Shown: piece after piece, positions 38,201-41,200 of the stretch
Layout of the letters: each line of letters starts with the position of its first letter
Position numbering within the stretch: position 1 is the first letter of the stretch
NCBI GenBank assembly: GCA_036785375.1
Contig: JAWMAR010000245.1
Location: forward strand, 1,488,001-1,552,000
Direction: 5' to 3'
Length of the DNA stretch: 64,000 nucleotides
DNA from: Leucoraja ocellata
Lineage: Eukaryota
Position numbers: made by a program

Positions 38201-41200
38201 CTATTTCCTTCGCTCCATAGATGCTGCTGCACCCGCTGAGTTTCTCCAGCTTTTCTGTGTAACCTGCAAATAATCTATATGGAAAGAGGGATTGGTGAGG
38301 AATAGGAAACGTGCACTTGTTTTGGAGATCCTGCCTGACTAATTAAGTTTTTTTGAAGATAGACAAAAATGCTGAAGAAACTCAGCGGGTGAGGCAGCAT
38401 CTATGGAGCGAAGGAATAGGTGACATTTCGGGTTGTGTCCTGCGCATAATAATAATAATTTTATTTATAGAGCACTTTAAAAACAAACATAGCTGCAACA
38501 AGGTGCTGTACATCACTAATCATTGACAAAAAAGTTAATACACACCAAAAATAACAATCAAAAGAAATAGTAGGAAAAGACATGTAAAATAAAGAAACAT
38601 CAAAAAAACACCACAAACAGAAGCAAAGCCTCAGGCATAGTCAAAAGCCAGGGAGTACAAATGTGTTTTAACACTGGATTTGAAGATGGACAGTGAGGGG
38701 GCCTGTCTGATGTGCAACAGCAGGGTGTTCCAGAGTGCCGGAGCAGCAACAGAGAAAGCTCTATCCCCTCTGAGCCTCCGACTAGACCTCGGTACCTCTA
38801 GGAGCAGCTGACCAGCTGGCCTGAGGGACCGGGCAGGAGCGTATGGGTGGAGCAGCTCAGAGAGGTAAGGCGGGGCGAGCCCATTCAGAGATTTAAAAAC
38901 AAATAACAGTATCTTAAAATGAACCCGAAAGTGCACCGGGAGCCAGTGGAGGGAGGCCAGAATTGGCGATATGTGCTCCCTCTTTCGAGTCCCTGTTAAA
39001 AGGCGACCAGCAGCATTCTGAACCAACTGGAGACGAGCCAGTGAAGAACGAGCAACACCAAAATAGAGCGCGTTACAGTAATCCAGCCTAGATGTAATAA
39101 GAAGTTATGAATTGGATCATTCTCACAGATATCTCTGCAATCAGCTGTGGAGATGGGAAAGGCCAGTCTTTGATCAACTCACTGGAAGGGCAAGCTGGTG
39201 GAGCTCGCTGGCTGGGGGCACTGGCTGGTGGAATGGTCGGCGGGCACTGGTAGAGGGCCGTGACATTGCCTATTTCCTACAGGGTTTCGGCCCGAAACGT
39301 TGGCTATTTCCTTCGCTCCATAGATGCTGCTGCACCTGCTGAGTTTCTCTATGGAGCGAAGGAAATAGGCAACGTTTCGGGCCGAAACCCTTACGGGTTT
39401 CAGCCCGAAACGTTGCCTATTTCCTTCAGGGTTTCAGCCTGAAACGTTGCCTATTTCCTTTGCTCCATAGATGCTGCTGCACCTGCTGAGTTTCTCCAGC
39501 ATTTTTGTCTACCTAAGCTTTAAGACTTGATCCCTTGACTGGTTTTTAAGATGGTGGTCACCAAGTGCAGGTTGGAAGGGTCGAGTCTGAAGAAGGGTCG
39601 CGACCTGAAATCTCCCTTCCCTCCGCAGATGCTGCCTGACCCGATGAGTTCCTCCAGCCCCTTGTGTCTTTGCGAGGGGAAACCTTTGCTCTCTCTCCTA
39701 TTCTCTGTGGCTTGCAAGGTTATGTTCAGGGACAGGCTAGCCGATACCAATCACACGTTGGAACAGTGGGAGGGGCGGCAGGGATCACAGTGAGGGGGGG
39801 TACGGGACAGGAACGTGGCTGTAGTAATGAGTGGGTAATTGTTCTTTTATTTTCTTCTGACAGATGCCAATTTGCACCTTGGCTGCCTTGTTGGGGTAGA
39901 GCTGCACAAGCTTCTGGAAGTTGGCTTTTGCCAGTTCATAATCATTCATGGCAAGTCTCGCCTCACCCATTCTGAAAAGAGCCTTCTCATTGTTTGCATC
40001 CAGCTCTAACGCTTGAAATAAAAGAATCGTATATTCATTTTAGGAATCATCTTACTGCCTGCTATCCTATCATCTATCTGATAGACAATAGGTGCAGGAG
40101 TAGGCCATTCGGCCCTTCGAGCAAGCACCGCCATTCAATGTGACCATGGCTGATCATCCCCAATCAGTACCCCGTTCCTGCCTTCTCCCCATATCCCCTG
40201 ACTGCTATTTTTAAGAGCCCCATCTAGCTCTCTTGAAAGCATCCAGAGAACCTGCCTCCACCGCCCTCTGAGGCAGAGAATTCCACAGACTCACTACTCT
40301 CTGTGAGAAAAAGTGTTTCCTCATCTCCATTCTAAATGCCTTACTCCTTATTCTTAAACTGTGGCCCCTGGTTCTGGACTCCCCCAACATCGGGAACATG
40401 TTTCCTGCCTCTAGCGTGTCCAAGCCCTTAACAATCTTATATGTTTCAATGAGATTCCCTCTCATCCTTTTAAATCCCTCTCAATATCACACTCTGTAAG
40501 TATTAGCTTATTACTCTGCTACCTTCCCACACAGATGGGGAAAAACAAGATGGGCAGCACACTTTGGGGGCCTAAGAGACCTGCCCCATGGTACAAACCT
40601 GTACCATAGAGGAGAAGAAGGGTTTCGACCCGAAACGTTGCCTAGTTCCTTCGCTCCATAGATGCATTTTTGTCTACCCTCGATTTTCCAGCATCTGCAG
40701 TTCCTTCTTAACCACGGTTCAAACTGCATCAGTTCAGTTATTTTGCTTTTTGAAAGAAAAGGTTGGGTTGTGTTAGATGAGAAAGCTGATCTATTTGATA
40801 GGGAAAGAATGAGTAGATATCGCGGTTGATAACTTTGACGCCTTGTGTTCAGGTAATTCGAAGACACGCTTTTGAATACGAGAAGGAAAGCATCCAAAGT
40901 AACTCTGATTAATTGAATTCTTCCTCCTGAAAGGATGGCGTGCATCTACACGCTCCCAGCCCGGTTATTTTGTCTGACTGCACTGAAGTAGTGCTTCAAG
41001 TGTGTTTACGTCCCAGGGTGAACAAAGCCTAAGATGATCACTGCTCGAGCTGGCCCGGTGTCAACAATGCAGATAGCTTATCGGGCCAGCACATCAATGC
41101 TGGACCACCAGCGCGGGCGGGCCCCTGTACATGTAAGAGCAGGTCAGAGCTGCTTCTCTCCCAGGGACAACCAGAACGAATTTACACCCCAGACAACGGA

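What the first reader, a model, noticed from the sequence alone, without database searches (positions are those of the whole stretch)
39837..40080. Inverted, splice-dead copy of FKBP4 exon 9 whose exon part is far better conserved than its intron part
Seen: 39837-40080 is the reverse complement of 30449-30695. The exon portion has 1 substitution in 176 nt (a synonymous CpG change). The intron portion has 5 substitutions plus a 3-nt deletion in 68 nt, including loss of the acceptor (CAG to CAA). A neutral pseudo-exon should differ at a good fraction of the intron rate, not about one-tenth of it. On the + strand the copy is antisense to FKBP4 mRNA, and it is preceded by CCAAT (39747-39751) and a GC box (39768-39779). 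Inference: possible explanations are recent gene conversion (perhaps mRNA-templated, which would be exon-limited) or selection for complementarity. The latter could be an antisense RNA or a read-through transcript pairing with exon 9, which encodes part of the Hsp90-binding TPR domain, giving exon skipping, editing or endo-siRNA. The sample is small, so chance is possible.
Basis: partly seen in the sequence, partly recalled or inferred. Interest (0 to 1): 0.7.

Follow-up and report, generated by a model that had tools for sequence, protein, structure and literature searches.

The report
Dead inverted FKBP4 exon fragment
A broken, backwards copy of part of one FKBP4 exon sits next to a jumping-gene remnant 5 kb past the gene, and its unusually good match to the real exon is most simply a by-product of DNA repair copying rather than a sign of function.

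Summary
39837-40080 (+) is the reverse complement of 30449-30695. The exon part has 1 difference in 176 nt (a synonymous CpG change), and the intron part has 5 substitutions plus a 3-nt deletion in 68 nt, including CAG>CAA at the acceptor.

Three points were missed. The copy holds only 176 of the 239 nt of exon 9. In both loci the unique stretch abuts the 3' terminus of a CR1-like LINE fragment, and homology runs on to 40477. The two LINE parts are not sister copies (p-distance 0.116, against 0.047-0.069 between the copy's LINE and other copies; AU test p=0.006).

The locus is therefore a three-part mosaic (0.6%, 7.4%, 11.6% divergence) built by ectopic, repeat-anchored copying. The exon/intron contrast is only moderately supported: p=0.002-0.007 with the exon boundary fixed, 0.02-0.06 allowing for constraint on the parent exon, and 0.03-0.11 with a free breakpoint.

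Best reading: a non-functional gene fragment whose exon part was homogenised by short-tract gene conversion from the parent exon. Chance is the main rival. Nothing supports an antisense or dsRNA role: there is no CpG island, the motifs are common, and the DNA is TE-rich and intergenic. No RNA data or related genomes were available.

The parts
39837..40012 (-). Pseudo-exon: copy of the first 176 nt of FKBP4 exon 9. It reads in sense on the - strand and antisense on the + strand. It is truncated 63 nt before the exon's donor.
   Evidence: 175 of 176 identical to 30520-30695. TPR_6 1e-8; the translation is identical, and the one change is GGC>GGT.
40013..40080 (-). Copy of the last 71 nt of FKBP4 intron 8 (68 nt here). 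The acceptor AG is mutated to AA at 40013.
   Evidence: 5 substitutions in 68 plus a 3-nt deletion; no other match in the window.
40081..40477 (-). 5'-truncated CR1-like LINE fragment (end of ORF2 plus 3' UTR). Its 3' terminus abuts the intron-derived stretch. It is probably a resident element and not a copy of the intronic one.
   Evidence: common terminus shared with about 17 other copies; open 89-aa C-terminal ORF; not sister to 30027-30448.
39685..39836 (.). Left flank of the copy. It is unique within the window and holds the CCAAT (39747) and GGGGCGG (39772) motifs. It is not a CpG island.
30520..30758 (+). Parent: FKBP4 exon 9 (TPR region plus the start of the C-terminal helix). Only 30520-30695 is copied.
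30449..30519 (+). Parent: last 71 nt of intron 8, with acceptor CAG.
30027..30448 (+). Intronic CR1-like LINE fragment in the sense orientation of FKBP4, ending 71 nt before exon 9. It is older and more decayed, with frameshifts and a 29-nt deletion at 30153.
34780..34785 (+). AATAAA at the end of the FKBP4 3' UTR. The copy lies 5052 nt downstream.

Best explanation
This is a dead fragment of FKBP4 made of the last 68-71 nt of intron 8 plus the first 176 nt of exon 9. It lies inverted in TE-rich intergenic DNA 5 kb downstream of the gene.

Origin (inferred): a repeat-anchored ectopic copying event. A CR1-like LINE fragment already resident at 40081-40477 lies in inverted orientation to the LINE fragment in intron 8. 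During break repair or a replicative template switch, the resident LINE's 3'-terminal homology paired with the intronic LINE. Synthesis then ran outwards through 71 nt of intron into exon 9 and was released after 247 nt, where it was end-joined at 39836/39837. This explains the identical LINE/flank junction, the breakpoint in mid-exon, the inverted orientation and the absence of target-site duplications.

Why the exon part is nearly identical (inferred): a later short-tract, non-crossover gene conversion from the functional exon to the copy. The tract ran to the end of homology at 39837 and stopped where the intron-derived part had already diverged. Conversions in the other direction would be removed by selection on FKBP4, so the copy tracks the exon. 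Since then only one fast CpG>TpG change has accumulated on the copy.

The copy has no function of its own.

Shown directly: the anatomy, the counts, the non-sister LINE parts and the lack of promoter or ncRNA signals. Inferred: the repair mechanism and the conversion.
For: (1) Three-part mosaic along one collinear block: 1/176 (0.6%) in the exon part, 5/68 (7.4%) plus an indel in the intron part, and p-distance 0.116 over 276 sites in the LINE part.

(2) The LINE parts are not sisters.
- The copy's LINE is closer to four other copies in the window (0.047, 0.058, 0.061, 0.069) than to the intronic LINE.
- Against the subfamily consensus within 40081-40400, the intronic LINE has 24 private changes, the copy's LINE has 6, and 0 are shared derived.
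- At 22 of 34 differing sites both states recur in other copies. At 9 of these the intronic LINE carries the state of all six subfamily-A copies while the copy's LINE carries a subfamily-B state. The reverse pattern occurs at 2 sites.
- The ML tree of 13 rows gives end branches of 0.02 against 0.082. The AU test rejects the two as a clade (delta lnL 11.85, p=0.0064).
- Ectopic exchange among repeats is therefore needed under any scenario.

(3) Only these 2 of 18 LINE termini examined share the flank.

(4) There is no target-site duplication. The longest word shared by the 30-nt flanks is 5 nt.

(5) The rate contrast is p=0.0071, and 0.0015 for non-CpG sites. The best free breakpoint falls after 40012.

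(6) The only exon difference is a CpG transition on the copy. That is what a recently homogenised, unselected stretch would show.

(7) Literature, passages read:
- Interlocus conversion is mostly reported for exons, because faster-diverging introns fall below the homology threshold (PMC3966223).
- Inverted repeats mediate homology- or homeology-driven template switches (PMC4352052).
- Ectopic recombination between repeats occurs during double-strand-break repair (PMC7407515).
Against: (1) The sample is tiny: 6 substitutions in 244 nt. The parent exon is constrained, so the exon pair may be expected to diverge at 0.5-0.75 of the intron rate. Under that assumption p is only 0.06-0.02. With a free breakpoint p=0.11 for substitutions only.

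(2) Homology is short. There are 244 nt of unique sequence and a 176-nt tract. The minimal efficient processing segment is quoted as >200 bp in mouse and 337-456 bp in human (PMC3966225, passage), so conversion here would be inefficient.

(3) The tract end coinciding with the exon edge is a coincidence under a DNA-templated model.

(4) The LINE pair is only 88% identical overall (1 mismatch plus a 7-nt tail-unit indel in the terminal 42 nt), which is poor for strand invasion.

(5) An alternative origin cannot be excluded: a 641-nt one-piece inverted duplication whose LINE part was later overwritten by another LINE copy.

(6) There was no outgroup, no population data and no reads, so neither the direction nor the timing of any change was tested.
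Confidence: 0.45

Rival explanations
1. Single event with no later exchange. The fragment was copied once, and the exon part differs less by chance plus purifying selection on the parent exon, so that only the copy's lineage and synonymous sites in the parent contribute.
For: With an exon/intron rate ratio of 0.5, P(at most 1 of 6 differences in the exon part)=0.060, and 0.10 at a ratio of 0.4. The free-breakpoint permutation gives p=0.109. The finding was picked out after being seen. If the copy's LINE was resident first, its short end branch (0.02) caps the age at a level compatible with few exon differences.
Against: Fisher p=0.0071. For non-CpG sites, 0/170 vs 5/66 gives p=0.0015, and still 0.0046-0.016 at rate ratios of 0.75-0.5. 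The best breakpoint is exactly the exon edge. The rest of the block is demonstrably mosaic.
Confidence: 0.3
2. A young copy with a mutation cluster made at birth. The whole 244 nt is recent (hence one CpG change in the exon part). The 5 substitutions and 3-nt deletion in the 68 nt next to the LINE junction were introduced by low-fidelity synthesis just after the template switch, or by one later mutation shower.
For: The differences lie 8, 18, 36, 45, 58 (the indel) and 67 nt from the junction at 40080, and then stop. None is at a CpG and 3 of the 5 are transversions. Two papers bear on this (passages): BIR/MMBIR-type replicative repair is described as error-prone near breakpoints, with reduced fidelity and processivity (PMC4352052), and closely spaced multiple mutations within 100 bp with a low CpG share are described as transient hypermutability (PMC3966225).
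Against: Six events in 68 nt is far denser than I recall for breakpoint-proximal mutation (recalled, no figure read here). An even spread over 68 nt followed by an abrupt stop at the exon edge is not a decay curve. No direct test is possible without an outgroup.
Confidence: 0.1
3. RNA-templated, exon-limited conversion. Spliced FKBP4 mRNA or cDNA served as the repair template for the copy, so homogenisation stops exactly at the splice junction.
For: The first difference after the identical run is the intron -1 base (40013), so the low-divergence block ends exactly at the exon's first base.
Against: A DNA tract could end anywhere in the last few tens of nt of the exon part without leaving a trace, because no markers remain there. 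The exact coincidence is therefore weak evidence. The other side is uninformative, since the copy ends in mid-exon. The mechanism is rare by prior knowledge (recalled). The copy itself contains intron sequence, so its origin was not from spliced RNA.
Confidence: 0.04
4. Selection on the copy. It is kept similar either because its + strand transcript (own promoter, or FKBP4 read-through) pairs with exon 9 to give dsRNA, editing, endo-siRNA or exon skipping, or because its - strand encodes a small TPR peptide.
For: 128 and 47 nt of perfect complementarity, with a predicted duplex of -348 kcal/mol. CCAAT and GGGGCGG lie 65-90 nt upstream. An 84-codon stop-to-stop frame on the - strand keeps the TPR match. 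Pseudogene-derived endo-siRNAs exist in other animals (PMC3616710, search listing and start of abstract only).
Against: There is no CpG island (o/e 0.29-0.46 against a median of 0.41), and CCAAT occurs 131 times in the window. Twelve poly(A)-type hexamers lie between the FKBP4 poly(A) signal and the copy. No Rfam match was found. The acceptor is dead, the donor is absent, and there is no in-frame ATG before the exon-derived Met. The one change is an unrepaired CpG decay. The surroundings are TE debris.
Confidence: 0.04
5. Assembly or polishing artefact. The copy, or its near-identity to exon 9, was produced by chimeric reads or by polishing with mis-mapped reads from the true exon.
For: The block sits between repeats, where assemblies are weakest.
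Against: The flanking homologous parts differ by 7-12% with several indels, so this is a distinct locus and not a collapsed or mirrored copy. The one exon difference and the mutated acceptor were not 'polished away'.
Confidence: 0.03

Closest known systems
Interlocus (ectopic) gene conversion between a gene and a nearby pseudo-copy (concerted evolution)
   Same: Two paralogous stretches lie 9 kb apart on one chromosome. A low-divergence tract is embedded in more diverged homology, and the tract covers exon but not intron, as is usual (PMC3966223).
   Different: The homology is very short: 244 nt unique and a 176-nt tract, at or below quoted MEPS values. The recipient is a partial single exon, not a gene copy. 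Concerted evolution across species was not tested.
Inverted-repeat- or repeat-anchored template switching (FoSTeS/MMBIR, Alu-Alu-type junctions) and SDSA-type templated insertion
   Same: One junction lies at a pair of inverted homeologous interspersed repeats, the copied segment is inverted, the second junction is in unrelated sequence, and point changes lie near the junction (PMC4352052).
   Different: The known cases are kb-to-Mb human structural variants. Here only 247 nt were copied, and the event is old and fixed in the assembly. The pre-insertion sequence is unknown, so microhomology at the second junction cannot be read.
Exon shuffling by LINE 3' transduction (L1 model; recalled, no paper read here)
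   Same: The gene fragment lies directly 3' of a LINE 3' end, in the LINE's orientation, exactly as a read-through transcript of the intronic LINE would carry it.
   Different: The LINE part is not derived from the intronic LINE. There is no target-site duplication and no tail at the distal end. CR1-type reverse transcriptase is thought to start at its own 3' hairpin and 8-bp microsatellite (PMC8665684), which argues against carrying downstream flank.
Pseudogene-derived antisense RNA / endo-siRNA regulators of the parent gene
   Same: An inverted pseudo-copy near its parent gene, with long perfect complementarity to the mRNA.
   Different: There is no evidence of transcription, promoter, processing or conservation here. 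The copy covers one partial exon only.

Membership tests
Interlocus gene conversion tract | A tract significantly less diverged than the flanking homologous sequence of the same pair | tested here: inconclusive
   1/176 vs 5/68 gives Fisher p=0.0071, non-CpG sites p=0.0015, and 0.02-0.06 with rate ratios of 0.75-0.5. The free-breakpoint permutation gives p=0.109 or 0.034.
Interlocus gene conversion tract | Enough uninterrupted homology for efficient recombination (MEPS) | tested here: inconclusive
   244 nt of unique homology, with current identical runs of 128 and 47 nt. Quoted MEPS is >200 bp in mouse and 337-456 bp in human (PMC3966225). The value for this organism is unknown.
Interlocus gene conversion tract | Concerted evolution: the copy groups with the same species' parent rather than with orthologous copies | not testable with these tools
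LINE 3' transduction | Transduced flank lies 3' of the LINE in the same orientation | tested here: met
   The LINE's sense strand is - at the copy and + in intron 8, and the exon fragment follows the LINE's 3' terminus in both.
LINE 3' transduction | The LINE part of the offspring derives from the source element | tested here: not met
   The AU test rejects the clade (p=0.0064). There are 0 shared derived sites against 24 and 6 private ones.
LINE 3' transduction | Target-site duplication around the whole insert, or a tail at its 3' end | tested here: not met
   The longest shared word between 39807-39836 and 40478-40507 is 5 nt, and there is no tail at 39837.
Repeat-anchored template switch / templated repair | Junction within a pair of inverted homeologous repeats | tested here: met
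   The two LINE fragments are inverted relative to each other and about 9.6 kb apart, and the copied flank starts exactly at the LINE terminus.
Repeat-anchored template switch / templated repair | Second junction with microhomology or blunt join to the recipient site | not testable with these tools
   An empty (pre-insertion) allele is not available.
CR1-group LINE (identity of the adjoining repeat) | Copies share a 3' terminus and are 5'-truncated to different lengths; 3' tail of 8-nt units resembling ATTCTRTG | tested here: met
   Termini of 18 copies are aligned and variable 5' ends appear. The tail units read TTTCTATG or TTGTCTAT on the LINE's sense strand, and the motif is given in PMC8665684.
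CR1-group LINE (identity of the adjoining repeat) | ORF2 with endonuclease and reverse transcriptase of the CR1 clade | tested here: inconclusive
   Only C-terminal ORF pieces are present in the window. They have no Pfam hit and no named Atlas cluster. The likeness to the CR1 ORF2 C-terminus is recalled.
Pseudogene-derived antisense / endo-siRNA regulator | The copy is transcribed on the strand antisense to the parent mRNA | not testable with these tools
   No expression data were available.
Pseudogene-derived antisense / endo-siRNA regulator | Promoter or transcript signals at the copy | tested here: not met
   CpG o/e is 0.29-0.46 against a window median of 0.41. CCAAT occurs 131 times and GGGGCGG 4 times in the window. 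There is no Rfam hit at gathering score.
RNA-templated (cDNA-mediated) conversion | Tract bounded by splice junctions | tested here: inconclusive
   On the acceptor side the first difference is at intron -1. The other side ends in mid-exon at the limit of homology, so it is uninformative.

The most novel reading that the evidence does not exclude
The exon-exact boundary is not a coincidence. Under this reading the copy is kept matched to exon 9 in one of two ways. Either repair is templated on spliced FKBP4 RNA, or selection favours an antisense/dsRNA partner of the TPR-encoding exon, reached by read-through or by a weak promoter at about 39.75 kb. That would make it a cis-encoded regulator of FKBP4 (FKBP52) splicing, editing or stability in a cartilaginous fish.
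Probability: 0.07. Interest if true: 0.7.

Novelty: new member of a known kind. Interest (0 to 1): 0.22.

Why it matters
As it stands, this is an ordinary piece of genome debris. It is a tidy small-scale example of how interspersed repeats seed ectopic copying of gene fragments, and of how a pseudo-exon can look 'conserved' simply because it exchanges sequence with its constrained parent.

It matters mainly as a caution. Exon-versus-intron divergence in a two-copy comparison is not evidence of function, and the adjoining repeat cannot be used as a neutral yardstick unless it is shown to be a sister copy.

If the minority reading were true (RNA-templated conversion, or a selected antisense partner of the Hsp90-binding TPR exon), it would be a rare natural case that RNA-seq and sister-species genomes could test directly.

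Tried and rejected
LINE 3' transduction or retro-copy of a pre-mRNA piece was considered because the fragment lies 3' of a LINE in its orientation. It was rejected because the LINE parts are not sisters and there is no TSD or tail.

Two independent LINE insertions at the same site in two copies was rejected as needing exact site coincidence. Only 2 of 18 termini share that flank.

Using the LINE part as a neutral yardstick would give a very small p. It was rejected.

A larger inverted duplication is not present. Homology ends at 39837 and 40477, and the nearby off-diagonal matches are high-copy TEs.

No other FKBP4 exon has a second copy in the window: 0 of the 9 other exon stretches checked, plus the 3' UTR.

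ncRNA: there were 0 Rfam matches at gathering score in 64 kb. The 14 sub-threshold matches in 39000-41000 are generic miRNA-hairpin hits on a palindromic TE at 39280-39433, one weak lncRNA hit, and nothing on the copy.

Coding use of the copy: an 84-codon open frame exists, but with no acceptor, donor or upstream ATG.

Classification of the LINE C-terminal ORF gave no Pfam hit and only unnamed clusters in the Atlas.

The CR1 survey paper PMC13343379 gave nothing on 3' structure or transduction.

The protein and contig searches that might have helped were closed, and the open DNA collections hold only prokaryotes, phages, plasmids and E. coli. Paper supplements were not consulted.
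Full report
**Scope and rules kept**

The window is not something I take for human. It carries a 10-exon FKBP4-like gene whose exon 9 is similar but not identical to the human protein. 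It is also packed with CR1-like LINE fragments and other repeats: 37% of it has at least one other copy inside the window. The N run at 54412-54745 was left untouched. The gene model was examined exon by exon, and the joined, spliced sequence was neither built nor searched. No related eukaryotic genomes, reads or RNA data were within reach of the open tools. Everything below therefore comes from this one window plus the literature.

**1. The observation**

The alignment of the two regions confirms that 39837-40080 (+) is the reverse complement of 30449-30695 (244 against 247 nt). The repeat finder reports the core as a 188-nt arm at 99% with 9141 nt between the arms.

Exon 9 of the gene on the + strand is 30520-30758. 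It runs from a CAG acceptor to a GTAAGT donor and is 79 codons long. Its translation hits FKBP4 structures best (1.3e-26, 95 bits) and FKBP5 second (2.2e-20, 76 bits) among 33 matched PDB sequences. Pfam calls TPR repeats in it.

The other coding exons lie at about 15.1, 17.5, 19.7, 21.2, 22.4, 24.2, 24.8, 28.1 and 32.6 kb. Of the pieces scanned, 3 of 5 FK-domain pieces gave FKBP_C and the exon-8 piece gave TPR. 'Exon 9' is therefore the right number.

The copy contains only the first 176 of the 239 exon nucleotides. It lacks the donor, and its acceptor is CAA.
- 1 of 176 in the exon part: parent 30567 G on the antisense reading, i.e. GGC>GGT in sense, Gly, third position, at one of the three CpGs of that stretch.
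- 5 of 68 in the intron part, plus a 3-nt deletion.

**2.

The 244-nt stretch is the only part that is unique to the two loci. At 40081 it runs directly into the fixed terminus of a high-copy repeat.

Eighteen termini of that repeat in the window were lined up. All begin with the same roughly 25 nt, and only the two FKBP4-related loci share what lies outside the terminus. The copies have one common end and variable other ends. They carry the C-terminal part of a long ORF on the opposite strand. They end, in their own sense, in one or two 8-nt units (TTTCTATG or TTGTCTAT).

This is the anatomy of 5'-truncated LINEs of the CR1 group. The 3' hairpin plus 8-bp ATTCTRTG microsatellite of that group is described in PMC8665684 (passages). 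The likeness of the ORF to the CR1 ORF2 C-terminus is my recollection. Pfam and the ESM Atlas gave no name.

In FKBP4 the LINE fragment (30027-30448) lies in the gene's orientation and ends 71 nt before exon 9. At the copy the LINE fragment (40081-40477) is on the - strand, so the exon fragment again follows the LINE's 3' end. Collinear homology between the loci therefore spans 39837-40477 and 30071-30695. The copy's LINE stops at 40477, whereas the intronic LINE continues to 30027.

**3. The LINE parts are not sister copies**

- Over 276 shared sites the two differ at 11.6%. The copy's LINE differs from four other window copies by only 4.7-6.9%, and the intronic LINE differs from those by 10.5-13.0%.
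- Against the subfamily majority (40081-40400), the intronic LINE has 24 private states, the copy's LINE has 6, and none is shared.
- At 22 of the 34 differing sites both states recur in other copies. At 9 of them the intronic LINE has the state of all six copies of the sister subfamily while the copy's LINE has the younger subfamily's state. The reverse pattern occurs at 2 sites.
- A maximum-likelihood tree was built from 13 of the 16 aligned copies. Three partial or misaligned rows (c1084, c41481, c36353) were left out. It gives end branches of 0.02 and 0.082. The AU test rejects the two as a clade (delta lnL 11.85, p=0.0064).
- The intronic LINE is also broken by frameshifts and a 29-nt deletion, while the copy's LINE keeps an 89-codon open stretch.

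A single 641-nt duplication followed by independent decay is therefore excluded. Two scenarios remain. Either the LINE at 40081-40477 was already there and only the flank was copied next to it, or a one-piece duplicate later had its LINE part overwritten by another LINE. Either way, ectopic homologous exchange is part of this locus's history, and the LINE part cannot serve as a neutral yardstick for the exon/intron comparison.

**4. How the fragment got there**

The LINE part does not descend from the intronic element. The 30-nt flanks of the block share no word longer than 5 nt, so there is no target-site duplication. There is no tail at 39837.

The layout fits a repeat-anchored template switch or one-ended break repair. 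The two LINE fragments are inverted relative to each other and about 9.6 kb apart. Pairing of the resident LINE's 3'-terminal region with the intronic LINE, removal of the non-homologous flap, synthesis outwards across 71 nt of intron and 176 nt of exon, release and end-joining would give four observed features: the identical LINE/flank junction, the inverted orientation, the mid-exon breakpoint and the lack of duplications.

Homology- or homeology-driven template switches at inverted repeats, with chimeric repeat junctions, are described for human rearrangements (PMC4352052, passages). Ectopic recombination between interspersed repeats during break repair is reviewed in PMC7407515 (passages). 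This step is inferred, not shown.

**5. Is the exon part really 'too similar'?**

With the exon boundary taken as given:
- Fisher's test gives p=0.0071 (1/176 vs 5/68), and 0.0022 if the indel counts as an event.
- Setting the CpG class apart, 0 of 170 against 5 of 66 gives p=0.0015.

The fair null is not equal rates, because the parent exon is constrained:
- At an expected rate ratio of 0.75 the probabilities are 0.020 (all sites) and 0.0046 (non-CpG).
- At a ratio of 0.5 they are 0.060 and 0.016.
- If the breakpoint is not fixed in advance, the maximum chi-square falls after 40012, exactly the exon edge. However, 10.9% of 20000 permutations do as well for the six substitutions, and 3.4% when the indel is added.

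The contrast is suggestive, not compelling, and it was noticed post hoc.

**6. Best explanation and rivals**

I rank the explanations as follows.

(a) Short-tract gene conversion from the functional exon into the copy, 0.45. The mosaic nature of the whole block, the 9-kb proximity, the CpG-only difference and the general rule that conversion tracts stay in exons once introns have diverged (PMC3966223) all fit. The short homology, set against quoted MEPS values of >200 bp in mouse and 337-456 bp in human (PMC3966225), and the unexplained coincidence of the tract end with the exon edge count against it.

(b) One event plus chance and parental constraint, 0.30.

(c) A young copy with a cluster of errors laid down next to the template-switch junction, 0.10. 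The six intron events lie 8-67 nt from the junction, none is at a CpG, and 3 of the 5 substitutions are transversions. Error-prone replicative repair and closely spaced multiple mutations are documented. The density seems too high, but that judgement is recalled.

(d) Conversion templated on spliced RNA, 0.04. Only the exact boundary speaks for it.

(e) Selection for an antisense/dsRNA or coding role, 0.04.

(f) Assembly or polishing artefact, 0.03.

**7. The functional reading**

The + strand of the copy is indeed antisense to exon 9, with perfect runs of 128 and 47 nt and a predicted duplex of -348 kcal/mol. Nothing else supports use:
- The 200-nt windows from 39501 to 40050 have CpG o/e of 0.29-0.46, against a window median of 0.41. 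The real CpG-island-like stretches are elsewhere, for example at the FKBP4 5' end near 15.0 kb.
- CCAAT occurs 131 times in the window and GGGGCGG 4 times.
- The copy is 5052 nt beyond the AATAAA that ends the FKBP4 3' UTR, with 12 further A[AT]TAAA hexamers in between.
- The next gene found is a single-exon bHLH gene on the - strand at 46611-47174 (HLH 8e-19), so the copy is intergenic.
- Rfam finds nothing at gathering score in the window. It finds only generic hairpin hits on a palindromic repeat 400 nt upstream.
- The stop-to-stop frame through the copy (84 codons, - strand) has no acceptor, donor or upstream ATG.

Expression, small RNAs, editing and conservation remain untested.

**8. Comparison with known things and novelty**

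The fragment works like, and most probably is, a gene-fragment duplicate made by repeat-anchored ectopic repair and touched by interlocus gene conversion. Both are known kinds, and this is a new, small and rather clean member. It resembles a LINE 3' transduction product only in layout. Two defining features of that class were tested and not met. It has the geometry of a pseudogene-derived antisense regulator, but none of that class's defining evidence could be tested or was met.

**9. Verdict**

Interest is low (0.22). The most novel reading still open is exon-exact homogenisation by an RNA template or by selection for complementarity. I give it about 7%, and it would deserve about 0.7 if true.

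The decisive tests are sister-species loci, outgroup polarisation of the six intron events, population data for shared polymorphism, long reads across the three junctions, and stranded RNA and small-RNA data over 34.8-40.5 kb.

Noticed in passing
window 13915-14162 and 14556-14803: A 248-nt direct repeat at 98.4% identity brackets a CR1-like LINE 3' fragment (about 14161-14555), just upstream of FKBP4 exon 1. It may be a very long 'target duplication' or another repeat-associated local duplication.
   Followed up: no
window 46611-47174 (-): A single-exon open frame of 188 codons with a helix-loop-helix domain (Pfam HLH 8.1e-19). It is achaete-scute-like by recollection and lies convergent with FKBP4.
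   Followed up: partly
window 60582-61445 (+) and 58791-59030 (+): A 288-codon open frame that is unique in the window, and a nearby 80-codon frame with a PPPPY motif. Neither has a Pfam match. They are probably exons of an unidentified downstream gene.
   Followed up: partly
window 39280-39438, 30924-31014, 28966-29130, 38142-38260 and others: A high-copy palindromic repeat with perfect hairpin arms of about 33 nt gives sub-threshold matches to many miRNA-precursor models. It looks MITE- or SINE-like, with one copy 400 nt upstream of the pseudo-exon and one 230 nt downstream of exon 9.
   Followed up: no
window 42693-42951: A tandem array of four 66-nt units at 89-98% identity, built from the tail of another interspersed repeat family (families D3 and D8).
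   Followed up: no
window 40083-40199 vs 41356-41472: The copy's LINE and a second LINE fragment 1.2 kb away in inverted orientation are 97% complementary over 117 nt (I5). This is higher than most pairs of this family and may be another local exchange.
   Followed up: no
window 53950-54400, next to the N run 54412-54745: A very GC-rich, CpG-island-like stretch with long open frames on both strands borders the masked or gap region. The N run was left alone.
   Followed up: no
window 38634-39104 (-): A 157-codon open frame that is unique in the window and resembles the C-terminus of another LINE ORF2 type (recalled). It has no Pfam match.
   Followed up: partly
window 35170-35226: A (TA)n microsatellite of about 57 nt lies shortly after the FKBP4 3' end.
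   Followed up: no
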